Below are positions 1,989 through 27,282 of a stretch of DNA of 64,000 nt, one piece after another. Origin of the DNA: Octopus vulgaris (taxonomy: Eukaryota); assembly GCA_951406725.2 (NCBI GenBank), contig OX597838.1:17422001-17486000 (forward strand), written 5' to 3'. Every line of letters starts with the position of its first letter. Positions within the stretch are counted from its first letter, which is position 1. Both the position numbers and the translations under genes were made by a program. Below the pieces are notes generated by a model. That model made no database searches and was not told the DNA's origin. It worked only from the letters and a program-made list of their open reading frames with translations.

Positions 1989-2113
1989 TTGCAGATCGAA
2001 AACGCTAAAGTCTCTTCACAGTCGGCCTGTTTTGATCCTGGTCTGCGCTTTAGTTGTTGTGGAATGTATTTGTGTCCTGGCCGAATTGATGGTCGATTTA
2101 CAGGCAATACGTT
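1989..2113 (+). CDS. HVCN1: Internal coding exon of a voltage-gated proton channel (Hv family): S0-S1 segment
   Basis: Polypyrimidine tract plus ttttacag acceptor (ends 1988) and gtaagt donor (2114). Phase 2 to phase 1. Translates [41 protein letters not shown], which aligns without gaps to human Hv1 S1 (LVVLDALLVLAELILDL). This frame is not in the ORF track. Confidence 0.9.
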
Positions 2114-2215
2114 GTAAGTAGATTAACGTGTCTTCTATCGTTTTGGGGTTTTTTTGTTGTTTTTTTTGTTTTTTTTAAAATCTATTACTTATGTATCTAC
2201 GATTTATTAAAACAT

Positions 2216-2573
2216 CTTTTTCTTCCTTTCTTTCCTTCTTTCCTTCCTTTCTTTCTTTCTTCCCTCCTTTCTTTCTTCCTTTCTTTCTTCCTTCCTTTCT
2301 TTCTTCCTGTCTTCTTTTCTTTTTTCCTTCCTTTCTTTCTTTCTTTCTCTTTCTTCCTTCTTTCTTCCTTCCTTTCTTCCTTTCTTTCTTTCTTCTTTTC
2401 TTTCTTTCTTTCTTCCTTTCTTCCTCCCTTCCTTTCTTCCTTTCTCCCTTCCTTCCTTTCTTTCTTCCTTTCTGTCTTTCTTCCTTCCTTCTTTCCTTCC
2501 TTCCTTTCTTTCTTCCTTCCTTCATTCATTCCTTCTTTCCTTCCTTCTTTCTTCCTTTCTTTCTTTTTTTCTT

Positions 2574-2632
<59 letters not shown>
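2216..2632. repeat. Polypyrimidine (TTCC/TTTC)n plus (CT)n tract
   Basis: Directly visible. Confidence 0.95.
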
Positions 2633-2633
<1 letters not shown>

Positions 2634-2859
2634 ATCACGTCACAAAGTGTGTGTTCTTCAAGAAAGACATGTTCAAGATTGGTAATCTATTAAAAAAAAC
2701 AGAACCTTCATAGAACAGAAACTTCATAGCTTGAATTATTAGTAAGTTCTGGAATACTGCATTATTTTTATTAAAGGATAACGTGTCCATTCCACTGCAC
2801 TTCAGAGATACAATGGAATTGGATCAGCGAATGGATTGCAGAGGTATGATGAAGAAACT

Positions 2860-3329
<470 letters not shown>

Positions 3330-3569
3330 TATGGCACTTCAGAGTACATGGTAACCTGCCCATGTCTTTGTGTCGATTACAACTTAAACATTACACTCAT
3401 TCCTAATATAGAATCATTTTTCACTTGGACAGGTTATTATAACATTGTTATTACATAATACTGAGTCAATCGTAAACTTGCTCAGATCTCCCTCACTGCT
3501 TCCATTTTTGTCGTTTTCCTTAAAGAAAACTGACATTTCAAAAGTTTGAGGGGCACCTAGAAAGTTAGA

Positions 3570-3692
3570 TGTAATCTCCAGGGATACAGGCATCAAGCAA
3601 AAGGACCTCCATAATGCCATGATGGACCGTGAAGTCTGGCGTAGCATGGTAAATTCCATTGTCTCGACCACGGTCGAACAATGATGATGATG
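3570..3692 (+). mobile_element. 5'-truncated RTE-type LINE 3' end with target-site duplication
   Basis: Same family as 56463-56729. (TGA)n tail. 11-bp TSD agaaagttaga at 3559-3569 and 3693-3703. Confidence 0.85.
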
Positions 3693-5201
3693 AGAAAGTT
3701 AGAAGGCCGTGGATACTACCCATCCTTCGTGACTAAGCCATAATGTAGTTTATTGAAGCTGTTGTCTGTCATATAAAATAATGTCAGTCTTTCGCTAAAA
3801 GCTGATTGTTTCATCTGTAAACTCAGGCTATGAAGAAATTTTTTATCATCATTTTCTAAAAGAGTTGGTTTTTCATATTTGCACCGTAACATTTCATTTA
3901 AGTTGCTTTCGGCATCTTGGCCATCTTATTATATACTTTGTGGTGGAAATATCGTTCAAAAACAAAAGCGAGTCATTGTAGGCATCAGTATGAGGGAGAA
4001 AGAGAGAGAAAGACAGAGAGACAGAGAGAGATAGGGAGAGAAAGAGGTGAGAGGATGAGAGACAGAGATGGGCATAAAGAGATTGGTTTTCTAATTTGAT
4101 TCACGCAGTCATTCTTCATCGCAGACAGCGAACCATGATAGGACATCGCACTGTTCTACTTAAGTATCATAGCCTATCCTGCTAGTAGAAATAAATTACA
4201 AGAATAAAAATAGCAGAAACACATCATAATGTCTAACTTTGAGATGGAGTATCACGTGATCATCCTGCGAGAAAACAACATCAATATCTCTCAAATAGCA
4301 TCCTATTGTGTTTAGAAAACAAAGAGCGCATTTGATAATGAACGCCTGAAAGGGAGGTAAGAGACAGAGGTTTACTCAGAGTTCGCCGACAGCAAATAAA
4401 ATATATTTTCAGTTAAATAAGCACTACGTAAATAGGAGGTGCTTATGTTTACATGGTAAATATTAGTGTAATATCTATTTTGCCTATATCAAGTAGTAAT
4501 TAGTATTTTCCATACGTAAAACTACATATATAAAAATTCTTGCATGCAAATTAAAACTTGATTTATACAAATATAGATTCAGGTGGTCTCGCAAGTAAGT
4601 TCTACATGTCTTGCATACCTAAATTATATCTGAATTAGTAACCAGTAACTGTACGCAATATCTCTGAAACTTATTATTATTAATCTCTAATCCACCTAAG
4701 GATTGTGGCTAAAAAATATACACTAACCTAATTTAAGGTCTAGCAATCTTCATTTGAAATCTAAACCTAGGGTCAATATAGGGTCAACACGGTAGCGGTT
4801 TTTATGGTTGTATCAGGTTCCCAAATGTTCCATTCACATTCCTTACACTCTAAACCTATAGTCATCTACCAAATACAATGCTAGAAAAACCTAGATATTC
4901 TTAGCACGCTTCAGACTACGTGATGGCTGAGCCTTGAATAAAGTTGTAAAGACTAATAACCAGACGAATGTAAATGAATGAAAATGTAATTGCTTGATGT
5001 CCATGTAGCAGAAACATGCGTCGGACATGTTTAAATCAAATATGGTGTATAATGTAGATGTATTAATCTCCGTAGTCCTTATAATTGTGGAGGATTCAGT
5101 TGTGCGATTGCTCGCTCCTTAAACCTTTAGTAAGGGGTAACTGGTTGAACATTTCACAAATTAGTATACCCTTGTAATTCTCAGGTTAAATAGGGGTCAC
5201 A

Positions 5202-5247
<46 letters not shown>

Positions 5248-5271
5248 GTAGGTGAGTGGGTGGGTGGGTGG

Positions 5272-5307
<36 letters not shown>

Positions 5308-6536
5308 CTGTGTGTGTGTCTGTGTGTGATACAAGGTTATATCCTTTGAATTACAGATACAATCCGTCCGACGGTCTTCTGTGCAGTTACTTTCGACCGA
5401 GGCCATAGAAAATTATATATGCCCAAGATGTTATATTGTTACTATCCTCATCTCAGAGGCTTAGCTACTGTACTTCGTTCACTGGGATGAAGTGTATGTG
5501 TGTTAAAGATCAATCATACGCACTTTCTTTTTTTAATGAAAATAACGATGTATCGCAGCATATGTTAAAAAATGACCGAGTTGTGCTGTAGCAGAATGAT
5601 ATAATATATTTTGTCTTCGTGGTTGCTCCATAGTTAAGCTACTTCAAAGCGTTTGTTGTGTGTATTATTCTTCCAACAATTGAAATAATTTCAATAATAG
5701 TTCTTGACTTGTTAATTCAGTATACTGTATCAAGGTATTTTTCCACCAAATATATATCTATATCCCATTGAGTAGACGAAGAAAAGCAACATTTTAACTA
5801 TTAACAAATTGATCTTTAACTCTATAGGGGACATAATGAACAACATTTTAAAAGGGTTATATTACTTGTAAGCAGATCTTTGCCAGCAGGACGAAAAACA
5901 AAAATCAATTACTAATGTGGTACCCCACTAATGACCGATAAAAAGTAATTGGTGACGAGATATTATAAGCAAAGATTACTCTAACCTTAATAGCTTCGGC
6001 AATTCTCGGTTCTATCAAATGGTTTATTGTCTCACTAAACGAGAAACAGCTTGTCATTAACTTTATTTGCAAAAAAAGATCCTCGTTTATGGAACAGTTT
6101 TGTCTATGTGAGAACTATTTGCTCAACACCGTTTAGAGACGTTAAAAGCGAGATTTATGTTCTTGAAATTAAGACATGACTTCGCTTACCTTGCGCAAGA
6201 ACTATTGATTCCTGGAGAATATCTATAGCAAATCATTCTAAGAGTTTACTCAGCTGAAGGGAAAGAATTTATTAATTCCATTAGTTTCGATGGTAATGAG
6301 TAATAAATATGATAATGGATTTAGGAATACTCTTCAACATCACAATTCAACAATGAGAGGATATAGCAAACCCTGTTTGATGTTGCGTGGTTCATTTATG
6401 TAGCATTCGTTTGTTAGAGTTGGAACTTTGGTTAGTTATTCAAGATAAAAATTCTTCCAATCATTTATAGCATAAAACATGACCAGATTTCAGAAATTTA
6501 TGTATACATCAATTTACGTATGTGCATATACATATC

Positions 6537-6586
<50 letters not shown>

Positions 6587-6616
6587 ATATATATATACAT
6601 ACATATATGTATGATG

Positions 6617-6790
6617 GATCGCTAGCCACTAAACATTTTTTATATTTTCTCTCCATGTTTCTTTCTGTGTTCCTTTCTGTCGAAGAGCGTAGGTTCGAAA
6701 CGTAAAAGACTTTCGCATTTCCCGAGCGTTAAACTAAAACATCTGTTTGTTGTTTACACATCCGTCTTCGTCTTTTGTAAATTATCACTA
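6617..6790 (+). mobile_element. Penelope-type short repeat with variant hammerhead motif
   Basis: CTTT-CTGTCGA-A-GAGC-gtag-GTTC-GAA-ACGT-A-AAAG at 6673-6708. Truncated second copy at 54629-54740. Confidence 0.6.
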
Positions 6791-6851
6791 TACACACACA
6801 CACACACACACAGACACACACACGGATGGCTGAAACAAGTAAAAGAGTAAA

Positions 6852-6916
<65 letters not shown>

Positions 6917-6919
<3 letters not shown>

Positions 6920-7281
6920 TGAAGTGTAAAGACCCCGACACCTTCGGTCATCGATGACCATGGGATTGCACCTACAAAGTTCTCCTACGAGGCACAAGTC
7001 TGGGCAAGGTTGTCTTTGTGGAAGGCCAGCAATTTTTGTGGAAGTCCATGCATACCAATCTCCCATCTTCATGCCACCGATGTTATCCAAGGGAAAGGCA
7101 AGGACCAATACAGCTTGGCACTAGTGACGTCGCAGCTCATTTCTACAGCTGAGTGAACGGGAGCAACGTGAAATGAAGTGTCTTGCTTAAGAACACAATA
7201 CAGAGCCTGGTCGGGAGTTGAATTCACTACATCATGATTGTAAGCCCGACGCTCTAACTACTGAGCAATGCACGTTCACCC
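6917..7281 (-). mobile_element. tRNA-derived SINE with CORE-like segment (family D)
   Basis: Minus strand: tgctcagtagttagagcg..aattcaactccc, then gtgttcttaagcaagacacttcatttcacgttgctcc, shared with 28790-29015. Confidence 0.65.
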
Positions 7282-7288
7282 TATATAT

Positions 7289-7437
7289 AGGGTTGTGTGG
7301 CAAAAAGCTTGCTTCCCAATAACATGGTTCCGAGTTCAGTCCCACTGCATGGCACCTTGGGCAAGTGTCTTCTACTATAGCCTCGGGCCGACCACGGCCT
7401 TGTGAGTGTATTTGGTAGACGGAAACTGAAAGAAGCT

Positions 7438-7503
<66 letters not shown>

Positions 7504-7708
7504 CTGTGTTTGTCCCCCCAGCATCGCTTGACGACCGATGCTTGGTTGTTTAGGACCCTGTAACTTAGTGGTTCGGCAAAAGAGACCGATAGAATAAGTA
7601 CTAGGCTTTCATGGAATAAGTCCTGGTGTCGATTAGCTCGACTAAAGGCGTTGCTCCAGCATGGCAGCAGTCAAATGACTGAAACAAGTAAAAGAGAAAA
7701 GAAAAGAG
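7289..7708 (+). mobile_element. SINE family A
   Basis: Same consensus as 2860-3329. Confidence 0.85.
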
Positions 7709-7952
7709 ATATACATACATAGTAATCCCTTTCTAATGGAACTCTCCTATCTGCAAACCGAAAGCGAGTAGTGCTCGACTACTTTCCACGAGTTCGTCCT
7801 ATTGTCATGGAATATCTACGTATACTCCATGCACGAGGATAGTGAACAGCTTATAGTTTGCTGACGGAAAACAGGTACAGGATATGTAGGCCTGTATGTA
7901 TGTATGTATGTATGTATGTATGTATGTATGTATGTATGTATGTATGTGTGTA

Positions 7953-8340
7953 GAGGCGCAATGGCCCAGTGGTTAGGGCAGCGGACTCGCGGTCATAGGA
8001 TCACGGTTTCGATTCCCAGACCGGGCGTTGTGAGTGTTTATTGAGCGAAAACACCTAAAAGCTCCACGAGGCTCCGGCAGGGGATGGTGGTGATTCCTGC
8101 TGTACTCTTTCACCACAACTTTCTCTCACTCTTACTTCCTGTTTCTGTTGTACCTGTATTTCAAGGAGCCGGCCTTGTCACTCACTGTGTCACGCTGAAT
8201 ATCCCCGAGAACTACGTTAAGGGTGCACGTGTCTGTGGAGTGCTCAGCCACATACACGTTAATTTCACGAGCAGGCTGTTCCGTTGATTCGGATCAACCG
8301 GAACCCTCATCGTCGTAACCGACGGAGTGCTTCCATCCAT
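7953..8340 (+). mobile_element. SINE family C (tRNA-derived head), tail type 1
   Basis: A box tggcccagtgg, B box ggtttcgattccc. Near-identical to 47388-47762 (-) and 17824-18081. Confidence 0.85.
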
Positions 8341-8463
8341 GTATGTATGCATGTATGTATGTTACTATATTTTATATCTTATATGTAAAGAATAATATGT
8401 TATATGTATGTATATTATTGTAATTATCAGTTTAGTAAATAAATAAATAAGTTAACATAATTT

Positions 8464-8907
8464 GGACATTTTCGGTTTGAACGGCAGTTTTTTCTAACGG
8501 TGTCATATGAAATTGTCCCCCATAATTATGACCCTAGTATCGATCTATTGCATTTCAATCTGCTTTAGGGTTAGGGTTAGTTAGGGCTGGTTAGGGTGGG
8601 TTAGGGGTGGGGGTAGGGTATCTTTTTTTCTTCAGAAATGTAAATAAACCCAATCTGTTTCTTAAACGAGGGACGTATTCATACAGTACAGAATGTTTTT
8701 TTTTACCTCAATAGACGTCATTGATTGGTTGAACTTGCAGAAATTGAAGAAAAAAACCAACAAATATCTTACAAACCATAGAATTTTCTCAATAAAGCCA
8801 AGAGAAAATAATGTTTTATAAACACATTCTACCAGTATACGAAGTTTAAATGTGTTTAGTTACGTGGAAATTATTTTTAAAAACTGCCGGTCAAAGCGAA
8901 AAGATCC
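8464..8907. mobile_element. Merlin-like non-autonomous DNA transposon with internal TTAGGG-like repeats
   Basis: ~30-bp TIRs starting GG (consensus ggatcttttcggtttgaccggcagtttt). 8-bp TSD cataattt. Second copy at 55680-56117. Confidence 0.8.
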
Positions 8908-9480
8908 CATAATTTTATGTCTAAAAGTTGATGAAACACATATTTGTTCTCCTCCATTTTCTTATTTGCTATATATGTATATATATATGTATATATATAT
9001 ATATATATATGCACACACACACACACACAAACATTATGTATATATGTGTGTGTATGTATGTATGTATGTATGTATAATGAGAGTGAGATAGACGAGCAAA
9101 CAGACAAACAGACAGACAGATAGATAGAAAGATATTAATGTTTGTTTTTATGTTTACTTATAATTAAAAAAAAATCAATTTTGCATCATTAACCTGATGG
9201 GTTACCCCGTGCTTTTGTAGAGTATAAATCCATTATTCTTATATAAGAATGTTGTTGACAGCGACTTCGAAGTGTCGGCCATTCTTGTACAGGAATAATA
9301 AGTAGATAGATAGATAGATAAATTGATTGATTGATTGATTGATAGAGAATGCTGTCACTCACAAAAATTAGTATAAACTAAATGTAAAGTGATGTTTTAA
9401 ATAAATTTTTAAAAATACAACATTCCCCCATCTCTCTCTCTCCCCCTCACTCAATTCCTCCTCCCCCCTCTCTCTCTCAC

Positions 9481-9511
<31 letters not shown>

Positions 9512-10004
9512 TCTTCGTAGTACAATACTACCCTTCAAGGATTCCTTAAAAATTTCTAAGCCTATCTGTCAATGATCACAAAAGTCCATTGTGTTTTCCT
9601 GGCACCCCAATCTATCGATCAGTGCTCATTGTTAACATATATAAATTGTGTTATATCTACATTTAACACGATCTTCAAGTCAATAAACCTTTTCAACAAA
9701 TATATACACGAGATTTCCGACATTTAATTTGAGAAAGGGGCAGAACACAAAAGCGCAACCGGATATATGTGCATACGTACGCATTTGTGTATGTATATAT
9801 GAATGTATATATTTAAATTTGTATGTATCTACACGTGTGTATGCAGTATATATATATATCTGTGTGTATGTATGTGTGCGTATACAATTTTCTGGTATAT
9901 TTTACACGCATATATATATTAGATATATCTATATGTTGCAATATCTTTGTTTTTCTCTCAGCCTATTTATAGCCATCAATTTATCTCCTACACACACTGT
10001 TCCT

Positions 10005-10035
<31 letters not shown>

Positions 10036-10395
10036 CTTCTTCACCCCGCTCTGTATTTCTCTGTTCTCTTTCTCTCTTTCTCACGGTATATGTGTGTATA
10101 GATGTGTACACACACACACACATATATATATATTCAAGCGCCTATATATATGTCTGTGTACACGCGCGTTGATGTGCCGTTGTATAGATTCACGCATATA
10201 TACACATGTAAGTGCATGTGTGTGTATATATATATATACGCGTATATGTGAGTGTGTGTATATATTGTATGTATGTATATATATATATATATATATATGT
10301 GTGTTTGTGTACACGCGCGTTTATGTGCCTTTGTATAGATACACGCATATATATACATGTGAGTATATGTACGTGTATATATATATATATATGTG

Positions 10396-10489
<94 letters not shown>

Positions 10490-10972
10490 TATGCGCATGT
10501 GTGAGTGTGTGTGTGTATATATATATATATGTATGTATGTATGTATACAGTCACACGCGCACATCTATTTATACACCCATCGATCCACCAGCAAACCTTC
10601 TTCGATCGAACTATTCCTATTTTTATCTGCTCATTTGCCTCCCTAACTACCCGTCCACCCACCCACCTACTTAATTACCTACCCTAACAGCCTACCCTCC
10701 CAGCTATCCACCTACCTCGCTCCACCCCCCACGTCTTCTTCCTTATCTATCTCTGGCTAATTATAATATAAACGTTTGATAATCTAAATTGACAACATCC
10801 ATTATAAACCATTCAAGCCGTCTTTCTGCTGCTGCTGCTGCTACCGCTGCTGCTGCTGCTACCGCTGCTGCTGCTGCGTTCTTCCATATCGGGACGAGAT
10901 TAAAGAACAACAGAAAAAAACAATACAAAAAGAGCCATCCCAATTACACCAGCATATCCTCATGATGTAAGT

Positions 10973-11568
<596 letters not shown>

Positions 11569-12073
11569 GCGGTGTTTGTCCCCAACATCGCTTGACAACC
11601 GATGCTGGTGTGTTTACCTTCCCCCGTTCGGTTAAAGAGATCGATAGAAGTAAGTACTAGGCTTACAAAGAAATAAATCTCAGGGGATCGATTTGCTCGA
11701 CCTAAAGGCGTTGCTCCAGCATGGCTGCAATCAAATAATTGACAAGAAACAAGTAAAAGAGGAAAACAATTGTCATTCCAATTATCCCACGACCTTATTT
11801 TGGGGGGGAAACCCATGCCCTTATTTATTGAACTGTATCTCAAAACGCCGGGTATCATTTGTCCAGATCCACTTCTGGTCACGTCGATTCACACGTTTAT
11901 GCAAATTTCATTTCATTGAGTTTTAGGTCAGTTTTATTTGTTTCTGTTAGGATCCAGTCCGGTGTTCAAGGGAGAGATTCCACAATAATCCAACTATAAA
12001 ATAGACGGATGCATATTATGCTCGCGCTTAATTTGTGCTTCTCTGGTTGCTAACATTTGCAGCAGAGCATATG

Positions 12074-12164
12074 TCTGTCTGTCTATCTATCTATCTATCG
12101 ATCGATCGATCTATCTGTCTGTCTGTCTATCTATCCATCCATCTATCTATCTGTCTATCCATCC

Positions 12165-12195
<31 letters not shown>

Positions 12196-12240
12196 CATCC
12201 ATCCATCCATCTATCTGTCTGTCTATCTATCCATTCATCC

Positions 12241-12291
<51 letters not shown>

Positions 12292-12387
12292 CATCCATCC
12301 ATCCATCATCCATCTATCTATCTATCTGTCTATCTATCCATCCATCCATCTATCTATCTATCTGTCTATCTATCCATCCATCCATCC

Positions 12388-12474
<87 letters not shown>

Positions 12475-12485
12475 CGTCCATCCAA

Positions 12486-12558
<73 letters not shown>

Positions 12559-12665
12559 CATCCATCCATCCATCCATCCATCCGTCTGTCTATCTGTCTG
12601 TCTGTCTATCTCTCTATTTATCTATCTATTTATCTATCGATCCATCTGTCTAACTATCTATCTAT
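12074..12665. repeat. (TCTA/TCCA/TCTG)n tetranucleotide microsatellite
   Basis: Directly visible. Similar tracts at 13325-13530, 35352-35770 and 41348-41620. Confidence 0.95.
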
Positions 12666-13151
12666 TATCTGAATGAGCTTGGGTGCACACTATATATGGA
12701 TTTGCAAACGAATGCATATATATATATATATATATATGTGTGTGCATTTATGTGTGACTGCGAGTGTACATAGAAGCAGTGTGTGTCCATTTGTGTAGAA
12801 AAACAAAAAGCGATATATTGAGGGAGAAGACAACGGAGAAATAGAGAATTTATGCGTCTGTAATAGAAAAGAGTAATACAGAGAGAATAACAGAATAACA
12901 GAATAACAGAATAAGAGAGAACGAGAGAAGACATAAACCTACAGACTACGTATACAAACCATTCTAGTGTATCTACACGCAAAATTGAAATTACTGTAGA
13001 TTTCTACATAAAAACCTACTTCTGCTACAGAACCGTTTACACCAATTCTCTCGCATCCAAGAATACATACAGAAACCAAAATTACTTTACATCTCTCTTA
13101 CTCTCTTTATTTTTCTTCCTCCCCTCTCACTCTCCCTGTTTCTCTCTCTCT

Positions 13152-13201
<50 letters not shown>

Positions 13202-13337
13202 CTCTCTTTCTGTCTCTCTCGGTCTGCGTATATGTGTGTGTATGCACGGATGTATGTATTTATGTATACTACACATATATTTATGTATGTGTATGAATAT
13301 ATGTATACTGATATACATATCTATAGAGATAGGTAGG

Positions 13338-13506
<169 letters not shown>

Positions 13507-13671
13507 GTAGATAGACAGATAGATAGATACAGCATAAATATGAAAAAATTGATTTTAATTTAAAAGTAAATACGAGAAAGCCCTCCTGTGGCTATAATAA
13601 AAAATGTAAACACCTTATTACAGCCACAGTGAAGCTTTCTAATATATATACTGATACATATAAAATATACA

Positions 13672-13714
<43 letters not shown>

Positions 13715-14025
13715 AGAAATATATATATATATATAAACACACACACACACACACGTGTATATGAATGTGTGTGTGTCTGTGTGTGCGTGCGTGTAGGTAA
13801 GCCTCACCAGTAATGTGATCTGTACAGAAAGCTAAGCTAATGTAGCAAACAGCTTCACATTCTAAATGAACATTGATTATTACGTCACCAACACCCAATC
13901 TATGGTGCTCGCTCCATCATTATTTATCCACCTTCTCACTGCACACGTGACATCACATGTCGCTTATGAAACCGGTAATAAATGTAAATGTAAATACATA
14001 CATACATATACATGTGTGTGTGTGC

Positions 14026-14073
<48 letters not shown>

Positions 14074-14372
14074 ATATACTCACGTACACCTACGCGCATC
14101 TGTACTTGCAGTTATATTCACAATGGCACGGTTTTAAGAACGACACGTCGATTCAAAAGTGATGTCGCGTACGCAGCCAGCCCCCTCCCCATACACACAC
14201 ACACACACACACACTCACAGGATCGCACACACATTCACGCGTGTGCGCGCACACGCACTTACACGTACGTACATGCATACATACATACATAGATACACAC
14301 ATACACACACACGATCAGATACATTTACACATGCACAGAGAGACAGTGAGACAAGGAGAGAGAAAGAGAGCG

Positions 14373-14473
<101 letters not shown>

Positions 14474-14944
14474 CAGACAAAACTGCTCGACGTTTGCAAC
14501 AAATTTTAGGCCGAATACTGTCTGAGATATAGCGAGGGAGTAAAGATGAGATTCCAACACACACAGACACACACACACATATATATACATATATATATAT
14601 TGTGTGTGTAGTGTTTGTGTATATATGTACTCTTGTTCGTATATGTAACCACATAAAATCATGACGTATAACTCGCAATACGCACATAATTATGCATTCT
14701 TATACGCACATGCACTCCTAAACGTACATATACAGCCATAGCCATAGACACATACCCTTTTGTTTTCTTATATATATTCCTGATCTATTCACAGGCGCAC
14801 ATAATCGTTCACTCACTGCTCGCTATTCAAATCCTTAGGACTTGCACAAATTCAAAGTTTACGCTCAGAGATGCACACGGGTAGAGACAAACAGCCTTAC
14901 CAGGCTCACAGCCTTACCAGGCACACAGCCTTACCAGGCACACA

Positions 14945-15327
14945 CTCTTTACTCTTTTACTCTTTTATTTGTTTCAGTCATTTGACTGCGGCCATGCTGG
15001 AGCACCGCCTTTTAGTCGAGCAAATCGACCCCGGGACTTATTCTTTGTAAGCCCAGTACTTATTCTATCGGTCTCTTTTGCCGAACCGCTAAGTGACGGG
15101 CACGTAAACACACCAGCATCGGTTGTCAAGCAATGCTAGGGGGACAAACACACACACATACACACACACATATATATATACATATATATGACAGGCTTCT
15201 TTCAGTTTCCGTCTGCCAAATCCACTCACAAGGCATTGGTCGGCTCGGGGCTATAGCAGAAGACACTTGCCCAAGATGCCACACAGTGGGACTGAACCCG
15301 GAACCATGTGGTTGGTTAGCAAGCTAC
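14945..15327 (-). mobile_element. SINE family A
   Basis: Consensus match; head slightly truncated. Confidence 0.85.
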
Positions 15328-15611
15328 GTAGGTAATCACGGACTATCACACATGTGTTGACAGCTTTCATAAGTCAAATACATGCATATCACAGTGATAT
15401 GTTTATATGGTGTGGTTGAGTTGTAGGGGGCTGTGGGGTAAGATGTTTGCTTCGCAACCACATGGTTTGAGGTTCGGTCCCACATGCAGCAACTTGGGTA
15501 AGTCTCTTCTACAATAGCTTGAGGCTGACAGAAGCCTCGTAGGCGGACTTGGTAGACGGAAACTGAAAGAAGCCCATTGATACCTATATATATATATATA
15601 GGTATATATAT

Positions 15612-15902
15612 CACATGATCACGTGACCGACCAGACTATCAGATGTTGCTACACATCGCTGGTCACAATGTGCTTCGCATTGTTTTAGCCTTCGAATGAC
15701 GCCACCCCGCTGGCTAAGCGAGCAGGCCAACAGAAGAAAGAGTGAGAGAAAGTTGGGGCGAAAGAGTACAGCAGGGATCGCCCCTCCCCCGGCAGGAGCA
15801 TCGGGGAGCTTTAGGTGTTTTCGTTCAATAAACACTCACAACGCCCGGTCTGGGAATCGAAACCGCGAGTCCGCTGCCCTAACTACTGGGCCATTGCGCC
15901 TC

Positions 15903-15903
<1 letters not shown>
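15612..15903 (-). mobile_element. SINE family C, tail type 2
   Basis: Same head and body as 7953-8340 up to ctttctctcactct, then an unrelated tail ending ggtcggtcacgtgatcatgtgata. Confidence 0.75.
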
Positions 15904-15941
<38 letters not shown>

Positions 15942-16289
15942 TCATTTATTTGTTTTAGTCATTTGACTGCGGCCATGCTGGAGCAACGCCCTTCTTCGAA
16001 CAAATCGAACCCAGGACTTATTCCTTGTAAGCCTGGCACTTATTCTATCGGTCTCTTTTGCCGATCCGCTAAGTTACGGGGACGTAAACACACCCAACAT
16101 CGGTTGTCAAGCGATGGTGGGAGACAAACACAGACACACAAAACTTTCTGTACACCCCTCGTATATATGTGCACACACAAATTCAGATATGTACATATAT
16201 ATTTCTGTATGTGCATATTTATGTGTATAACATGCATGACATACAAAAAAAAAACGCATGTCTATATCAGTGTATATATGCTTGTGTAT

Positions 16290-16330
<41 letters not shown>

Positions 16331-16459
16331 TGTTTGTGTTTGTGTGTGTGTGTAAAGTTAATAAAAGAATGAAGCTATTGGTATTACATCTATTGTCCGG
16401 CAAGGATCGCCCCAATAGATGTGTTGGATAAATCATTTTGGATGTAGAACTCAATATAT

Positions 16460-16865
16460 TCTTTTACTATTTTACTTGTTTCAGTCATTTGACTGCGGCC
16501 ATGCTGGAGCACCGCCTTTAATCGAGCAACTCGACCCCCGGGGCTTATTCCTTGTAAGCCCAGTACTTATTCTATCGGTCTCTTTTGCCGAACCGCTAAG
16601 TTACGGGGACATAAACACATCAGCATCGGCTGTCAAGCGATGTTGGGGGGGACAAACACAGACATACAAACTCACACACACACACACATTATACATATAT
16701 ACGACGGGCTTCTTTCAGTTTCCGTCTACCAAATCCACTCACAAGGCTTTGGTCGGCCCGAGGCTATAGTTGAAGACACTTGTCCAAGGTGCCACGCAAT
16801 GGGACTGAACCTGGAACCATGTGGTTGGTAAGCAAGCTATTTACCACACAGCCACTCCTGCGCCT
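16460..16865 (-). mobile_element. SINE family A
   Basis: Full-length consensus match. Confidence 0.9.
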
Positions 16866-18469
16866 CAATGATAATATAATTTCATGTGATATTGGTTTCA
16901 AATTTGCCACAAGGGCAACAATTTTGGGGACGGGGTTAAATCGATTTCATCGATTCCAGAGTTTAACTGGTACTTATTTTATTGAAATGATGAAAAGCAA
17001 AATCGACCAAGGCGGAATTTGAACTCAGGACGTTAAGTCGGAAGAAATACCTTTAAGCATTTTTCAGGCGCGGTAACAATTCTGCTAGCTCGCTACTTTA
17101 ATTTCCATGTGATATTAAATGTAAGCCAATTCTGTCATCTCATCATCACACTGAAAACGATGCAACATGCTTGCACTAAGATTAATGCCTTTATAAATAC
17201 AACAATGGGAGCGGCTCAAAGTGTTGTTGCGAGAAATTAATCATTTTGACATACTTGTAGAAAAGTGCAGAGTAAATTGATCAAAAAGAACTGACAATCT
17301 TGTATACTACTTGACAAACCGAAAGTAATGCCAGGTTTAGTAAGGCGAAATGAAGGATATATAATGTAAGATGGCTGTCTGAGCACAGAGGATGGTATTT
17401 GAATTAGCACAATGACATCACACAGGATCATTAGTTAAACGGGATGGGTATGTCAAGAGTAACATCAAAGGAATTCAGATGATGAGGGAAAAAAATGAGT
17501 AAGAAAACATGAAAGAGAAAGGTAGATAGAACAAATACAAGAAGCGGATCGTGAAAAATAGGAAGAGAGACTAAAATAGGAAGAGATGAAGACGTGTAAT
17601 TAAAGAAACTGATTAATTTCTCATTAAACAGAATAAAACAGCAAATGAAATCCTAATCAAAATATCGTAATGCAGTATTAATATAGAACAGGATTATATC
17701 AAAAATAGTAAGTATTAAGAACAGAAAAAAATTAAATATTAATATTTTTAAAGGAACCAGTAAATGATAATAAATCTTTGAGCGAGTTATAAACAGTAGC
17801 TGCAACACATCGTGAACAGCCTACACGAGGCTCCGGCAGGGGATGGTGGTGATCCCTGCTGTACTCTTTCACCACAACTTTCTCTTACTCTTACTTCCTG
17901 TTTCTGTTGTACCTGTATTTCAAAGGACCGGCCTTGTCACTCTCTGTGTCACGCTGAATATCCCCGAGAACTACGTTAAGGGTACACGTGTCTGTGGAGT
18001 GCTCAGCTACTTACACGTTAATTTCACGAGCAGGCTGTTCCGTTGATTCGGATCAACCGGAACCCTCATCTAAAGTGCTTCTATGTATGTATGTATGTAT
18101 GTATGTATGTATGTGTGTGCATTTTAGAAGTGGAAAAGCCAATAGAAATGTATATGAATATGTATACCCATACATGTGCATGCGTTTAGACTGTATCTAT
18201 ATCTGCAAATAAACTCAGATATTTTATGACATAGCAACTAATGTACAGAGAAGCCGTTTTACTGGTTTTGTTCAGTTTGCAGTACTATTTATCAGACACG
18301 GTAGAATATCCGACAAATCATCTACCTCATTTTATTATGAACTTTTGTGATATGAGATCAAATTCCACTAGAGTCCACTTTGTTTTTCCTTCATCCTAAG
18401 AAATGAATTAAACGGTCATACAATCTCGGTGGATGAAACTGGCTCTTAAAGTGATGAATTGGTGGAATT

Positions 18470-18773
18470 CTTTTGTTCCTTCTCGAGCCATGCCTGGCTC
18501 ATAAGGGCCAGTTTCCCGGTTTCCTTGGCGTATAGGTTCCCCACCTGGACGGGACGTCGGTCCGTCGCAGGTGAGCTGCTAGATGTAGGAAGAAAGAGTG
18601 AGAGAAAGTTGTGGCAAAAGAGTCAGCAGAAGTTCGCCATTACCTTCTGCCGGAGCCGCGTGGAGCTAAGGTGTTTCGCTCATAAACACACACATCGCCC
18701 GGTCTGAGATTTGAACCCACAATCCCTCGACCGCGAGTCCGCTGCTCTAACCACTAGGCCATGTGCTTCCACA
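18470..18773 (-). mobile_element. SINE family C variant with V-domain-like tail (type 3)
   Basis: tRNA-like head, then cctgcgacggaccgacgtcccgtccagg...gaaaccgggaaactggccc, resembling the V-SINE central domain. Confidence 0.7.
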
Positions 18774-19277
18774 GACTGGTGGAGTGTCGTGTAGAAAGTC
18801 ATACATTATTTATTCAGGGGCTATATTCTCTGAGTTGAAGGTCAACGTTGCCTTTCACCTTTACAGAGTTGACAAATAAGGTACCCTTCAAATAATGAGG
18901 ATCTGTTTCTATTGAATCGGGTGCATTATTTTTTGTGAGGGTCCCATTCAAGATGGTCCCACTGAATGTACCCCTTTCAGACAGCGAACTCTTATTGTAA
19001 CCATATCGATATTCTACTGAAGAATTTAAACTGATACACGTCAGACCGAAATGTGGAACTGCACAGAACAAAAATAAAGAAGAAAAGGAAACGTTTATTC
19101 TTTGATTCCTCGTTGCTATGTGTTACGAATATCACTGTGAAATTAAGACACACGGAAGGCTTTTCAATAGCTTGTAATGAGATTCAAATTCACCTGATTC
19201 ATTGTTACCTGACAATTCATCGGGATTCACGTCTATGCATACATACATATGTACACACACACACAGATGTATGTCAT

Positions 19278-19690
19278 TCTCTTTTACTCTTTTACTTGTT
19301 TCAGTCATTTGACTGTGGCCATGCTGGAGCACCGGCTTTAGTCGAGCAAATCGATCCCAGGACTTAATCTTTGTAAGCCTAGTACTTATTCTATCGGTGT
19401 CTTTTTGCCGAACCGCTAAGTTACGGCGACGTAAACACACCAGCATCGGTTGTCAAGCGATGTTGTGGGGGGGACAAACACAGACACGCAAACATATTCA
19501 CACACATACATATATATATACATATATATGATGGGCTTCTTTCAGTTTCCATCTACCAAATCCTCTCACAAGGCTTTGGTCGAGCCGAGGCTTTAGTAGA
19601 AGACACTTGCCCAAGGTGCCACGCAGTGGGACTGAACCCGGAACCATGTGGTTGGTAAATAAGCTACTTACCATACAGCCACTCCTGCGT
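19278..19690 (-). mobile_element. SINE family A
   Basis: Full-length consensus match. Confidence 0.9.
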
Positions 19691-21389
19691 CCTTATTCAG
19701 TTTATTTCAAGATTTCTTGCCAATAAAGAAAGAACCGGTTTCTAACCTGTATGTGTGTATGCATGCATGCATGTAACTGAAGGTATACGTGTATGTATGG
19801 ACACATACATAGACACACGTAGTAACAACGCACACTGTGTTAATACGTTAGGAATTTAGTGAAAAAAAAAACCAGCTACCAATATGCAAATGAGTTTTGT
19901 CTAGACACCGCATACTAATTTACACTTTAATAAGTAGCTTTAAGTTACAATTATTTTAATGTCTAGAGAAGTGGGGTGGAGGTAAGCGGATCTTGATGAT
20001 ATAAGTAAAAATGAAACTGGCTGATGTCCATTCTAAGCAGCCGAAATGGCTCTTGTTGTGGTTAATTTCACAGCTAGACACACCGACATGTCGCTGAATA
20101 TTTATTTATAGGTAGTCTAGTAATCATCTGTATCAGCATTGTCAGGTCGCTTTTGGATTTACTTGTGTTGTACAACTGAAAATATGTGTGCATTCTCTAC
20201 CGACTTCCTTATAATTTGTCGAATAAAAAGAAATGTTCTACTCTTATGTATTTTATTATTCTTACACGTAAGAGATACCGTCTTTCTCAACCAAGCATTA
20301 TTCTTGTCTGGTTATATGTGTATTTCTGATAATCATAAACGACGTGTATAAAATTAAATTAAACAACAATTAACTTCATTACGTGACTAATTAAAGGGGA
20401 CACAGATTATGTTTCTGCTTGTGCAATTAGTCTCAGTTAATCTGTTTGGTTTACATTTTATAAGGTGAAGATGTTTTCATGCTAAGGAGGAAGGTGGTCA
20501 CAGTTGCAACTCAATTTAAAACTATTCTGTCAAACAATTTTCTGTATCGGTGATTCATTGGGAAGTGTTTCTTATGGTGAAGTAATCTTTAGAAATATTA
20601 TACTGAAGGTTTCAGAGAAAATGTAGTTGAAAAATATAATATCTCATCAACAAATGAATTATTTATGTTATAATAGCGACCGAAGAAAAGTAAACGTTTT
20701 ATGACAAATTTATTTCATAAATAGAAATAATTTAACAAAAGTTTTTTTTTTTCTTTCAAAACAGACTGAAGTAAAATCCTTTAATCAAATGGATGTTAAA
20801 ACTATTGACATGTATTTCTTGATTATGGGGCTACTATTTCTAACTGTTGACGAAGGGGAATTAAATGTTACAGGCAAAAATGTTATATCGAAGCAAATCA
20901 TGGAAGAGCTTAAAATGCGAAACTTGGAATCAAATACTGAAGATATTTAGTGTGAGTAGTGTGATTGTAAGTATAGTGGGTGTAATTTGTTTGGTGAAGT
21001 AGCGCTATTTCGGATGGCAGCAGTAATTGACGGATGGTTGAGAACATAGTCATGTAGGTCATATTTCTTGCATGTTGGATGACCACTGCGAGAAGTGGCA
21101 GAGTTGTGGTATGAGGGAGAGAGTTACCAAACATGTAGAGTTTAGTGTGCAGAGAGTATATCTCGTTGGATTACCAATTGTTTAATGTAATCACCATGAA
21201 AATGTAACCGAAAAGCTGAATACTATTTAAAACAGATTTGAAACACAAGTTTAGATATTGATGGAAAGAAAAATTAATGACGTAAGCGACAGGAAGAAAT
21301 AATAGATTCGTAATTTTCAGATGGTAAAACGGGAATGACTGTAACAACAAAAAATGCAAAAGAAAAAAAGGGGCATAGGAGGTCCGATG

Positions 21390-21730
21390 CATTCCCTGCG
21401 TGCACGCAAGGATAAAATAAAATTTGATTTAATAAATATATTCTCAGACGAATTCATATTTTAACAAAATTACTTCAAGAGTTATTTCCCCTGCTTATTT
21501 CTTTTATGTATATGTAACAAAGAAAAAACATTTTGATTCACCCGTCCACTATTTTTGAAGACAATCAAACTAAAATTTAATGAGTTCGAACCACTGATCC
21601 AATGAGTATTTCTGCCAAATTTGGTGAGAATCCGTTCAGCCGTTTTCCGGTAATTTTGAAAACACACAGACAAACAGACAAACACGAGTGATTAGAATAT
21701 TCTGCTTTCGCTTACGTGCGCAGAGTAAAA
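21390..21730 (+). mobile_element. Helentron-associated (HINE/DINE-like) non-autonomous element, degraded
   Basis: caaatttggtgagaatccgttcagccgtt followed by (CAGA/CAAA)n and a terminal hairpin tctgc..gcaga then taaaa. Confidence 0.5.
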
Positions 21731-22803
21731 GGAAAAGGAAAAACAGCCCTGATAGAAAAAAAAGGAATGAAGGAACGAAATATTGTTTTCGATATAGAAA
21801 TACAATTGTAATTTTCAGCCAATTAAATGGGAAATTAATTTGAGTTTCGAATTAAGGAATTGGTGAGAGTGACAGTCGCTTTCTGACTACGCACTGTGAC
21901 AAAAGCCCAGAATACCTGAGGGAACAGAAGTTTACTTTATGTAGTGATATACATACATAGCATATGTCAGTAGAATTTTCATCTCCCAAAATCAATTCAC
22001 ACGGTATTGGTAAACCTCAGGCTATGGCACAAAACTTATTGAAACTTATGTACCACGGGATCGAACACAGAACAACACAATTAGTTCTGTATTCGATGTT
22101 TGCACCCAATGAAACAGTAAAAACAATAACTAACTGTTAAATATATAAGCTGGGCAGATACCAAGTTAATGAAAAGTACCATTAATGTTTACTGGTTCGT
22201 TACTCGTCTCTTTGCTGACGGTGAGATGGTAAAATTTTTAATTAATTTTTCTTTTTGGTTAATTTAAAATGCTATATTTAATATAAAGGTATACATTCTG
22301 TTTAAATACAAAAGCTCTTTGAAACAATTAGAAAGTTCTTAGCTTTCTATTTTCATTTCCAGAAAAACAAATTTTATATTAGGTGCCATATAATTGGATA
22401 GATTATTGAAATTTACGTTGTCAATTCCGCAAAGGTTTAATATATTGTATTTACATATTTTTGACTGAAAACATGTATGTTAAAGATAATTCATATTCTG
22501 CAAATTCAATATATACATTCTACAATATTTACATTTATTTAGTTGACTTCTCTATATGCATCATTCTTAGTCAGATTTCTATTTTAATCATTATATGTGT
22601 CTTTCTGGCTGATTTGAAAGAAATTTGGATGCTATTTCTAATATGATATTTGTCCATATAAAACCTTTCACATGAGTAACTATGTGTATGTATGTGTTAG
22701 TAATATTCGGAACTGACGATGTTAAGGGGAAATTTTTATAATAATTGTAAAAATATCATTATTTCTAATTCTCTATAAAGGAAACTACGGCAGCAGTACT
22801 GGG

Positions 22804-23154
22804 TATTAATAGTTATCGCCAAGCTAACATGGCAGTCCAGAAAAATAGGACGAATGCTGCCGTTTATTAGCTCCAAGGGGGCCATCGCCTCTAGCAAGCT
22901 ATATGACACACAAACCTGTGTCCATTATAACCTTCGAACAGGGGAGGTCAGCAGCTTCCCCTTGCTGGTCTGGCATCCACAGACTAGTTTCGAGATGTTT
23001 ACCTCTTATCAATGTGGAGTAACCGAATCCAGCAGGCGTCCCTGCTGACCGACTGTTTGAAGGATTATTTACCTAAATTCAGTGGAGCTAATCAACGGCA
23101 GCATTCGTCCTATTTTTCTGGACTGCCATGTTAGCTTGGCGATAACTATTAATA
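22804..23154. mobile_element. MITE with 72-bp terminal inverted repeats
   Basis: 22804-22875 is the reverse complement of 23083-23154 with one mismatch. Confidence 0.85.
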
Positions 23155-24835
23155 TTTATATTAATTGTCCTGATATTAATGTGACGCTTCAGTAAAATAT
23201 CTTTGCCAAAACTTCTTATGCACAAAAAGTGCTAAATTATTAAAGTCTCGTTGAATTATATTTTATTCATGATACGGAATGTTTTCGTAATTTTTGTTTC
23301 TCAAATTTCATATTTGTATATCTACAAATATTTAAGTAAAGATAAATATCTTATTTACTTTACAAACGATAGAATTGACTTTTGAATTTACAGACGGTTC
23401 TTGTAAAACAGCTTACCTATCCACCTCAAAAGTAAGTGGTTTCAAGAGACACCAGAAACTGTGTTCAATAAATCAAACTACATTTACAATTTGAGTAACT
23501 TTTTTCTTACTGGTTGAAAGCTGTAGTAAATTTGTTGTTATTTTTATTATCGTTCTCTTCCTTCTTCCTATCTCCCTAACTTCATCTTTTGCCTTTCATC
23601 ACATAATCTATTTTTGTATATGAGAATGAAATATTCATGGGCATGTTTTTTCTTTTTGTTTTTTTTCGGTAGCGTGCAAACAAAAAATAAACTTTGACCA
23701 AAAACAAACATAAACCTCATTTTTCCTTACGCTGCGCACATGAATTCAATAAATAAATTGAATAAACTCACTATTTTTATTTCGTTTCTCCAAATAAATT
23801 ACTTGAAAATCATTCTGATCTGAAGATAGCATGTGACGGACGGAGAGACGAACGGACGGACAGAGAATCGTATATTTTATGCAACATATTTATGCTTCTT
23901 TCAAATCGCATTTTATTTCATTCTTCTTATATTACAACTGGAAGACAATGTTAAACTATTATTGGATGTATCTAATTCAATTCTTACTGTTTGTAAAACT
24001 GTGATTTTAAACGATAACAGTGAAGCAGAGGCGTTTTCATAAATACTCACTGTGGGACCCTGTCTCTCACTATAAATATCTCTGCATTTCTTTCTCTATC
24101 GTCAAAATATCTCTCTGGAATGGCACACTCTCAAAGGGCACAACTATGGAATACTTCATATTTGCATAAGTGGGAGTTATGTAAATATGAACTGTATCAT
24201 ATATTTACATCCGCTTGGGAGTATCATTTATTTAAAACTCTCATTAAGTCATTAATAAAACTCATTAAAATAGAAATCGATTAGACATTTTCTCTCTGAG
24301 ATTGTATAATTATCTTCTTGAAGATTCGATAGCGTGTAAAGGATATGTAATATAGAACTTAATTGTAAGCAGCGACTACATTTACATTTGAAAGAAACCA
24401 ATTGCAAACAGTTTTAATTGTAAGACAGTTCCTTAAGAGAGAGAAAGGGAGAAGAAGAAGAAGCAGAAATCTTGTGATAATATAATTCTACTCAAGCAAG
24501 CAATTCTATAGAAGTGAATAATGTTGTTGTTTTCTTTCCTCTTTCACATTTGTTTACATTTAATGTCTAAGAGTTCTGGAAATTGCCGCCAACCTCATTC
24601 AGAGCTTATCGAGAAATAGTAAACGTCTTGCCATTTCTCTGGTCGTTTCTTTGCTTTTGAGAAACAGATCAATATTTAAACAAGATCCAAGAATTTTGAT
24701 AGTAAACAAGGAATTTATTGTGTCAATCCTTGATAAAGTGCTTAATTCTATTTATCTAATTTAAATCTTCTTGTTAATCTTTTCGTACATTTTTTTTCTA
24801 TTTCTATTTCTGTTTCTTTTTTTTCTTTTTTCCAG

Positions 24836-26130: not shown

Positions 26131-26287
26131 GTAAGAGATATATGTTCTGTTCTATCTATTTTATTTTTCATATTAATCAGTATTAATCCCATGTAATCTG
26201 GATTTAAGTTCTCAGCTGTGTAATAATTTGTATATCGTAAAGGATAATGCCATCCAGAAAATAATAAAAGCAATCAAGAAAACAAAC

Positions 26288-26430
26288 TAATTAATTTTAC
26301 GCTGCAACCAAGAAGTAGAAGTCAACGCTATGAAGAAGTATGGTCATTCGTCTAGAAACAAGAAGAGAAAAGGAGAAAGGAGCTGAAAATGCGAAACCTG
26401 CTGGAGAAGTTTACAGCGTAAAATTAATTA
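26288..26430. mobile_element. Small MITE-like element with 17-bp perfect TIRs
   Basis: taattaattttacgctg ... cagcgtaaaattaatta. Confidence 0.6.
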
Positions 26431-26986
26431 TTACATTGTGTGTATTTAATTCTTTATGCTACTTGTGTCTGATTTCTAAATATGTTTGGTAGTTCTGTTA
26501 TTACAAACATCACTGATTAGCAAGCAGTAAGTAACAAATGCGACTGGGTAAAGAGGTAAAAAAAAAAAACTTTGGTAAGTGAAATCGACGAGTAATTTTG
26601 ATCCCTGCTATCATTTCATTTCATTTACGACTGTCACTATTGTTATTATTATTGTTATGACCATTGCACTACGGAAATGCAAGAGGAAATTCACAATATC
26701 TTATTTGATCGTTTTTTTTTTTTTTACTAAACAGTACAAGCCCTGTTGGCTACCTGTATAACGGATCATTATCCGTAGTCTCGCGAGTAGGTCCGAGAAA
26801 CAGATCGATGTGTAATTTCGAAAGACAGGGATTTTGCAGGCTCTCATTTCCTCTTCCCATTAAGATATTAGGATTGCTTGCATTATCATTTGTTTCAGAT
26901 GTGGGTTTTGTGGTGTATATATATATATGTTTGTGTGTGAATCTATCTATCTATATGTCTGTTTGTCCATGTCTCTGTCTGTCTCC

Positions 26987-27025
<39 letters not shown>

Positions 27026-27029
27026 GTGA

Positions 27030-27232: not shown

Positions 27233-27238
<6 letters not shown>
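27030..27238 (+). mobile_element. Penelope-type short repeat with hammerhead motif
   Basis: GTTT-CCGACGA-A-GAGC-tcc-GCTC-GAA-ACGT-T-AAAC at 27099-27133. T-rich tail; flanked by (TA)n. Confidence 0.6.

Positions 27239-27282
<44 letters not shown>

What the first reader, a model, noticed from the sequence alone, without database searches (positions are those of the whole stretch)
1989..2113. Hv proton-channel paralog with glutamate instead of aspartate at the selectivity filter
Seen: the exon encodes [17 protein letters not shown], colinear with human Hv1 LVVLD112-ALLVLAE119LILD123L. The codon at 2062-2064 is GAA (Glu). Established: the S1 Asp is the near-invariant proton selectivity filter. 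Engineered D112E stays proton-selective, neutral residues allow anion permeation, and TMEM266 has Val there. Molluscs carry several Hv paralogs. Inference: this is a natural Glu-filter Hv, probably still proton-selective but with altered gating. Speculative: in a lineage with heavy A-to-I recoding, GAA to GGA (Gly) editing would neutralise the filter.
Basis: partly seen in the sequence, partly recalled or inferred. Interest (0 to 1): 0.8.

Follow-up and report, generated by a model that had tools for sequence, protein, structure and literature searches.

The report
Molluscan Hv3-type proton channel, glutamate filter
This is a real, spliced octopus gene for one of the long, unconventional mollusc proton channels (Hv3 type); its glutamate in place of the usual aspartate is shared with snails and clams and is known from insects, so the channel likely still passes only protons and is predicted to be weakly voltage-gated.

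Summary
Observation confirmed: exon 1989-2113 encodes an Hv S1 helix with Glu (GAA, 2062-2064) at the Asp112 position, and contigs from 4 of 4 runs laid join 2113 to 24836. The rest of the gene lies beyond the window (S3-S4 about 87 kb past its end) and is open in frame. S4 reads LPWRVVR, not RxWRxxR, so this is an Hv3-type molluscan paralog, not an Hv1. The Glu is not cephalopod-specific: 11 of 11 clade proteins with an S1 (octopods, gastropods, bivalves) have it, although the closest outside row (a scallop) has Asp. Natural Glu filters are published (stick insect EtHv1, proton-selective; Limulus; Balamuthia), and the Aplysia orthologue is printed, Glu unremarked, in a 2023 review supplement. 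Editing at 2063 is unsupported: contigs show A, and the 5' G is the least favoured ADAR neighbour; low-level editing was not testable. Best reading: a proton-selective, weakly voltage-dependent, leaky channel like AcHv3. It also has Met at the Phe150 gasket position. No recording of this clade was found. A new member of a known kind, of modest interest.

The parts
1989..2113 (+). Coding exon with S1 helix (phase 2 / phase 1)
   Evidence: AG/GT ends and open frame; covered 1998-2113 by spliced contigs in 4 of 4 runs; matches P0002-P0005
2062..2064 (+). GAA, Glu at the position of human Hv1 Asp112 (selectivity filter)
   Evidence: no other letter in contigs
2114..24835 (+). 22.7-kb GT-AG intron
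   Evidence: skipped in contigs of 4 of 4 runs; same junction in P0002 and P0003
24836..26130 (+). 1295-nt exon: most of the 414-aa S1-S2 loop and the first part of S2
   Evidence: 472-aa stop-to-stop frame
24838..25038 (+). Conserved start of the loop: helical extension of S1 (RFENEE...) and a CxC motif at 25030-25038
   Evidence: conserved in gastropod and protobranch orthologues; helical in the model of orthologue P0005
25200..25660 (+). Ser/Asn/Thr-rich low-complexity middle of the loop (approximate bounds); the whole loop has 15 NxS/T sequons
25939..25995 (+). Conserved loop motif LFVLHINNIKESFYLFGHY (two short strands in the orthologue model, low confidence)
26068..26130 (+). First part of S2; Met (26119-26121) at the Phe150 gasket position, Glu (26128-26130) at Glu153
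   Evidence: alignment of orthologue P0005 to hHv1 5oqk
26131..64000 (+). Start of a 121-kb intron that runs past the window end. The exons beyond it, in G000:C25 coordinates: 17568999-17569052 (end of S2, S2-S3 linker), 17573377-17573515 (S3-S4, LPWRVVR), 17577212-17577327, 17577955-17578027, 17579936-17580579 (post-S4 helix and acidic tail); an upstream exon lies at 17345532-17345609
   Evidence: no S2-S4 match in the window; exons located; these junctions were not tested with reads

Best explanation
The exon is the S1 part of an intact, spliced octopus gene for an Hv3-type four-helix channel whose filter is Glu, and the protein likely conducts protons selectively with weak voltage dependence and a predicted resting leak, like Aplysia AcHv3. 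Shown: gene structure, Glu, LPWRVVR S4, retained E119/E153/D174/D185/W207/R208/R211 equivalents, Met for Phe150, membership of a Glu clade spanning cephalopods, gastropods and bivalves. Inferred: the Glu carboxylate pairs with the remaining S4 Arg as Asp does and so excludes other ions. Also inferred: loss of the first Arg, the helix-breaking Pro and the non-aromatic gasket residue reduce gating charge and seal the closed state poorly. Glu would at most shift activation more negative. Speculative: a role as a standing proton conductance, possibly in internal membranes as proposed for AcHv3.
For: Eight exons join into an 841-aa frame with no stop, all GT-AG. First junction seen in 4 of 4 runs. 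Orthologue P0005 hits hHv1 at E 1.8e-8 and Ci-VSP at 5.8e-3 and folds as a four-helix voltage-sensor bundle (Z 13.6, rmsd 3.3, 132 aligned). The gene sits among xPWRxxR proteins; grouping it with canonical Hv1/Hv2 rows is rejected (p-AU 6.5e-4). AcHv3, with the same S4 type, is proton-selective, leaky and about 60 mV per e-fold (PMC10911540 passages). EtHv1 with natural Glu is proton-selective, and D112E keeps selectivity and shifts activation negative (PMC8804609 passages). Minimal filter rule: Asp or Glu plus a counter-charge (PMC10377628). Phe150 position: Phe in 0 of 71 Pro-type rows, in 32 of 32 Arg-type rows.
Against: No recording of any member of this clade was found. Identity to AcHv3 is only 42% over 118 core columns, and AcHv3 lies in a separate, fully supported subclade, so its behaviour may not transfer. 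The Glu rule was established in channels with three S4 arginines. Glu-clade support is moderate (SH-aLRT/UFBoot 82/77; UFBoot/SH-aLRT 83/70; 0.34 in FastTree), and its sister row (scallop P0022) has Asp. Structure searches did not single out Hv1: Foldseek gave nothing at E<=0.001, with Ci-VSP first and hHv1 at rank 18. Junctions after 26130 were not tested with reads, and both public octopod models (P0002, P0003) stop within S2.
Confidence: 0.62

Rival explanations
1. It is a non-conducting voltage or pH sensor (TMEM266-like in function): the Hv scaffold is kept, but the protein signals through its large loop and C-terminus rather than passing protons.
For: It carries three departures at once (Glu, lost R1 with Pro, lost Phe150), a conserved extracellular module and a long tail. 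PMC10377628 section 2.2 notes that some mollusc duplicates may no longer be proton channels.
Against: It retains the acidic filter, D185, W207, R208 and R211 equivalents. AcHv3 has a similar architecture and conducts. The Atlas first hit for orthologue P0006 is a putative Hv1 cluster (0.92); TMEM266 ranks 5th (0.85).
Confidence: 0.15
2. It is a proton channel with fairly normal, steep voltage gating, and Glu shifts activation negative to give inward current as in EtHv1.
For: EtHv1 and hHv1 D112E activate more negatively. The cause of weak gating in AcHv3 is itself unproven.
Against: Only two S4 arginines are present; the one tested channel with this S4 has very weak gating.
Confidence: 0.15
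3. In octopods the gene is broken or expressed only as a two-helix S1-S2 protein; the downstream exons are a separate unit.
For: P0002 ends at IMVLE and P0003 six residues later; the next intron would be 121 kb; that junction is untested.
Against: Downstream exons lie on the same strand in order, in matching phase, without stops, and the S3-S4 exon is 92% identical to orthologues; another intron of this gene is 78 kb. Truncated annotation is the simpler reading.
Confidence: 0.05
4. A-to-I editing at 2063 (Glu to Gly) switches the filter off in coleoids.
For: Coleoids recode heavily (search listing); GAA is editable to GGA in principle.
Against: Contigs of 4 of 4 runs show A. The 5' neighbour is G, the least favoured for human ADARs (PMC11276115; not checked for cephalopod ADARs). 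The Asp codons GAT/GAC are equally editable to Gly, so Glu adds nothing, and the Glu is shared with non-cephalopod molluscs. Minority editing is invisible in contigs.
Confidence: 0.03

Closest known systems
Aplysia californica LOC101852977 (XM_013090418), one of seven putative Aplysia Hv channels printed in the supplement of PMC10377628
   Same: Read by eye: S1 [20 protein letters not shown] with Glu, the RFENEE loop start, the INN..DSFF hairpin motif and S4 LLPWRVVR; apparent orthologue (not placed in my trees).
   Different: Longer loop; the main-text passages seen do not remark on its Glu, and it was not among the channels recorded.
AcHv3 (Aplysia LOC101855857, P0049), founder of the unconventional Hv3 type
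   Same: xPWRxxR S4, very long S1-S2 loop, long C-terminus, non-Phe gasket residue.
   Different: Asp filter, Leu rather than Met at Phe150, 42% core identity, separate subclade; the octopus has its own AcHv3-clade gene on C7.
[quoted passage not shown]
   Same: Natural Glu at the filter; EtHv1 is shown to be proton-selective.
   Different: EtHv1 is a 236-aa channel with canonical RxWRxxR, short loops and Phe gasket; an independent origin of Glu is inferred (not in my trees).
Human Hv1 (HVCN1)
   Same: S1-S4 fold, E119, E153, D174, D185, W207, R208, R211 equivalents.
   Different: D112 to E, F150 to M, R205 to L, L206 to P; 414-aa loop.
TMEM266 and Ci-VSP/TPTE
   Same: Stand-alone voltage-sensor fold; Ci-VSP is the top structural match.
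   Different: Ci-VSP lacks the S4 Trp and carries a phosphatase; no phosphatase family was found in orthologues. TMEM266 has no acidic filter residue (recalled).

Membership tests
Hv channels (criteria a-d of PMC10911540) | Four transmembrane helices S1-S4 | tested here: met
   Gene model; helices at pLDDT about 83-94 in orthologue model, voltage-sensor match
Hv channels (criteria a-d of PMC10911540) | Asp or Glu at the S1 filter | tested here: met
   Glu
Hv channels (criteria a-d of PMC10911540) | Trp in S4 and at least two flanking Arg | tested here: met
   LPWRVVR
Hv channels (function) | Proton-selective current | not testable with these tools
   needs electrophysiology
Conventional Hv1/Hv2 | RxWRxxR in S4 | tested here: not met
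   first Arg is Leu, followed by Pro
Conventional Hv1/Hv2 | Small protein with short loops; Phe150 gasket | tested here: not met
   414-aa loop, Met at 150; grouping with three canonical rows rejected, p-AU 6.5e-4
Unconventional Hv3 type (PMC10377628 section 2.1.4) | xPWRxxR S4 | tested here: met
Unconventional Hv3 type (PMC10377628 section 2.1.4) | Very large S1-S2 loop and large intracellular domains | tested here: met
   414-aa loop; over 260 aa after S4; N-terminus is short
Unconventional Hv3 type (PMC10377628 section 2.1.4) | Groups with AcHv3 and other Pro-type proteins | tested here: met
   Pro-type group 0.964, 91/85, only 63/48; Glu clade plus scallop is sister to the AcHv3 subclade 98/100, 86/84 with P0182 added
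Unconventional Hv3 type (PMC10377628 section 2.1.4) | Weak voltage dependence and proton leak | not testable with these tools
   recorded only for AcHv3
VSP/TPTE | C-terminal phosphatase domain and no S4 Trp | tested here: not met
   Trp present; no phosphatase family in the relatives scanned, among them P0005, P0006, P0008, P0010; the octopus gene's last exon was not located
TMEM266 | Neutral residue at the filter position (recalled) | tested here: not met
   Glu, and D185 equivalent present
TMEM266 | Phylogenetic grouping with TMEM266 | not tested
   no bona fide TMEM266 or VSP sequence was in my trees

The most novel reading that the evidence does not exclude
An ancient mollusc-wide proton channel subfamily that has largely given up voltage gating (Glu filter, two-Arg proline S4, no gasket Phe) and is instead opened or shut by its conserved extracellular module (S1 helical extension, CxC, beta hairpin) sensing a metal, redox state or ligand, which would be the first ligand-controlled Hv.
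Probability: 0.08. Interest if true: 0.75.

Novelty: new member of a known kind. Interest (0 to 1): 0.3.

Why it matters
The Glu itself is not new. What is useful is a natural combination apparently not yet recorded: Glu filter on a two-arginine, proline-kinked S4 with no gasket Phe, kept across three mollusc classes. It tests whether the Asp/Glu-Arg selectivity rule holds when the voltage sensor is degenerate. The alignment also offers a concrete candidate for the unexplained AcHv3 leak: no Pro-type row examined has Phe150 (0 of 71), while all Arg-type rows do (32 of 32). The work also supplies a near-complete octopus gene model where the two public octopod models found stop in S2.

Tried and rejected
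Pfam on the two window exons: no family at E<=10. Six-frame motif scan and tblastn for S3-S4 inside the window: nothing; the exon lies outside. Foldseek on the orthologue model: no match at E<=0.001; VIA ranks Ci-VSP first (Z 13.6), barely above designed four-helix bundles (12.8, 12.6), and lists no Hv1 among 50 rows, so the fold does not separate Hv from VSP. The loop was not folded on its own, so nothing is claimed about its fold. Run search: no holder is on record as RNA. Editing lists: terms HVCN1/TM266/TMEM266/hydrogen channel/CO027 gave 0 hits in the one supplementary file held for PMC8382921 (64,827 characters); a paper on cephalopod recoding sought by id was not held; HVCN1+octopus+RNA editing gave 0 papers. 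None of this excludes editing. The held supplement of PMC10911540 is only 3,837 characters and gave 0 hits; its figures S2, S11, S12 were not seen and may bear on this clade. A single origin for all molluscan Glu rows was rejected (p-AU 6e-10). A full IQ-TREE on 116 rows timed out and was replaced by FastTree and smaller ML trees (44 rows; 26 rows). Earlier scan findings: none. Rejected: chance match, pseudogene, VSP, cephalopod-specific Glu.

Full report
Observation. The exon is as described. It runs 1989-2113 between TTACAG and GTAAGT, reads ...[25 protein letters not shown], and 2062-2064 is GAA. Its only PDB hits at E<=10 are two Hv1 entries, aligned without gaps over this stretch so that Glu falls on Asp112. 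The donor leaves one base that the 24836 exon completes. Contigs from 4 of 4 runs laid (4 studies, out of 20 listed holders) cover 1998-2113 with no difference and continue into the first 30 bases of the 24836 exon. Two public proteins, an unnamed MetaClust record (P0002) and an Argonauta hians model (P0003), show the same junction and the same Glu. The host is an octopod: paralogous exons in this genome match named Octopus proteins letter for letter in 12-mers.

The gene. No S3-S4 lies in the window. A genome search with the S2-S4 part of the Solemya orthologue found it on the same contig and strand. From fetched stretches I located a 54-nt exon at C25:17568999 (best of 1295 candidates, score 61 against 21), the S3-S4 exon at 17573377, three further exons to 17580579 and one upstream exon 78 kb before 1989. 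All eight have GT-AG ends and join into 841 codons without a stop. A likely first coding exon lies near C25:17255085, so the gene spans at least 325 kb; the final exon was not found. Only the 2113/24836 junction is backed by transcript contigs. P0002 ends at IMVLE and P0003 six residues later, at the 121-kb intron, which I read as truncated annotation.

What kind of Hv. S4 is LPWRVVR. The first arginine of RxWRxxR is missing and a proline precedes the Trp, the signature of the unconventional Hv3 type, which also has a very large S1-S2 loop (PMC10377628 section 2.1.4, read whole); here the loop is 414 aa. The acidic positions E119, E153, D174 and D185 are kept (numbering, alignment; R205, L206, W207 and R211 numbering recalled). 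The Phe150 gasket position holds Met. Among 157 proteins examined, 116 had both S1 and S2-S4 and were kept. Of these, 71 are Pro-type (62 Asp, 9 Glu; none with Phe150), 32 have the first Arg (all Asp, all Phe) and 13 are other (all Asp). The orthologue P0005 matches hHv1 at E 1.8e-8 and Ci-VSP at 5.8e-3. Its model is a four-helix voltage-sensor bundle with S1 and S4 extended, but structure searches do not tell Hv from VSP. The genome holds at least five Hv-like genes: canonical S4 on C16 and C3, Pro-type with Asp on C7 and on the minus strand of C25, and this one.

How widespread is the Glu. All 11 database proteins of this clade that include S1 have Glu: P0002, Argonauta, Batillaria, Haliotis, two Elysia, Physella, Solemya, Mya, Dreissena and Mactra. 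The window gene is 83% and 82% identical to the Solemya and Haliotis proteins over about 120 core columns, against 42% to AcHv3. The Glu rows form a clade with moderate support (82/77; 83/70 with the filter column removed; 0.34 in FastTree). A long-branched scallop protein with Asp is its sister (98/97; 90/78), so either the Glu arose after that split or the scallop reverted. A second Solemya paralog (P0074) has Glu inside the AcHv3 subclade, and one clade for all Glu rows is rejected (p-AU 6e-10). A divergent Mytilus protein (P0182), whose cluster representative my S1 profile missed, also has Glu and attaches loosely beside the Glu clade (84/54). A split of these classes in the Cambrian is recalled, not computed. 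No TMEM266, VSP, insect or Limulus Glu sequence was in the trees.

What is in print. EtHv1 is a natural Glu-filter Hv1, proton-selective, activating negative to the reversal potential (PMC8804609, abstract and passages). PMC10377628 adds large Limulus channels and a Balamuthia paralog (passages). Its supplement (parts 1-2 of 8 and a search) prints Aplysia LOC101852977, which by eye is the orthologue, with Glu and LLPWRVVR; the passages I saw do not comment on it. It lists four Octopus bimaculoides accessions without sequences, and I could not tell whether this gene is one. AcHv3 is proton-selective with a leak and about 60 mV per e-fold, and the authors leave the cause open between S4 and a gasket breach (PMC10911540 passages; 'Phe150' has 0 hits in its main text). 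Searches found no paper on a Glu-filter Hv3. The review announces a manuscript on this family, subscription papers are not searched, and supplements I could not see may cover it.

Mechanism. Shown: intact gene, Glu, two-arginine proline S4, Met gasket, conserved clade. Inferred from EtHv1 and D112E: the Glu-Arg pair still selects protons. Inferred from AcHv3: gating is shallow and the closed state leaks. I put this at 0.62. Rivals are a non-conducting sensor (0.15), a steeply gated, negatively shifted channel (0.15), an octopod truncation (0.05) and an editing switch (0.03). On editing: majority contigs show A; the 5' neighbour of A2063 is G, the least favoured for human ADARs (PMC11276115 passages; PMC4384741 passages only say squid sites have neighbour preferences); and Asp codons are just as editable to Gly. 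Minority editing was not testable.

Verdict. Real and correctly spotted, but less surprising than scored. It is a member of a known molluscan channel type, carrying a substitution already known elsewhere and visible in a printed orthologue. The untested Glu plus degenerate-sensor combination and the Phe150 pattern give it modest interest, 0.3.

Noticed in passing
alignment; window 26119-26121: No Pro-type (Hv3) row has the gasket Phe150 (0 of 71: 52 Leu, 15 Met, 2 Ile, 1 Val, 1 gap), while 32 of 32 rows with the first S4 Arg do. A candidate cause of the AcHv3 leak.
   Followed up: partly
G000:C25:17056511-17079695 (L003, L005), minus strand: A second Hv3-type gene (Asp filter, LPWRVIR, Gln at E119) lies head-to-head on the same contig, its S1 exon about 344 kb from this one; it is not the sister of the Glu clade in the ML trees.
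   Followed up: partly
L002/L008 (C7), L006 (C16), L009 (C3): Three more Hv genes (AcHv3-clade, Hv1-like, Hv2-like), giving at least five in this genome against four listed for Octopus bimaculoides in PMC10377628.
   Followed up: partly
P0020, P0021 (nemerteans), P0026 (annelid Owenia): These carry LPWRVIR, although PMC10377628 says the S4 proline is missing in Annelida and Nemertea; the proline may be older than proposed.
   Followed up: partly
P0074 (Solemya), P0182/P0057 (Mytilus): Further Hv3-type proteins with Glu at the filter; all Glu rows together do not form one clade by the AU test.
   Followed up: partly
P0055, P0060, P0091: Hv3-type proteins (names not looked up) with S4 LPWGVIR, that is with only one S4 arginine left.
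   Followed up: no
window 24838-25038 and 25939-25995: Conserved ends of the extracellular loop (helical extension, CxC, INN.KESF hairpin) around a variable low-complexity middle; CxC and hairpin motif were not found in the heterodont bivalve rows P0009, P0010, P0018. Several orthologue loops carry R-x-R/K-R furin-like sites; none was found in the part of the octopus loop scanned.
   Followed up: partly
window 1989-1994: A second possible acceptor (TTGCAG ending at 1994) would drop two codons in frame; the stretch was masked in the read test.
   Followed up: no
window 50152-50526 (+): Frame reading like the C-terminal end of a LINE-type reverse transcriptase, by recalled resemblance; likely an intronic relic.
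   Followed up: no
window about 3300, 37700, 40300, 50900, 62300: Several copies of one interspersed repeat, SINE-like, on both strands in the introns, seen as a recurring translation.
   Followed up: no
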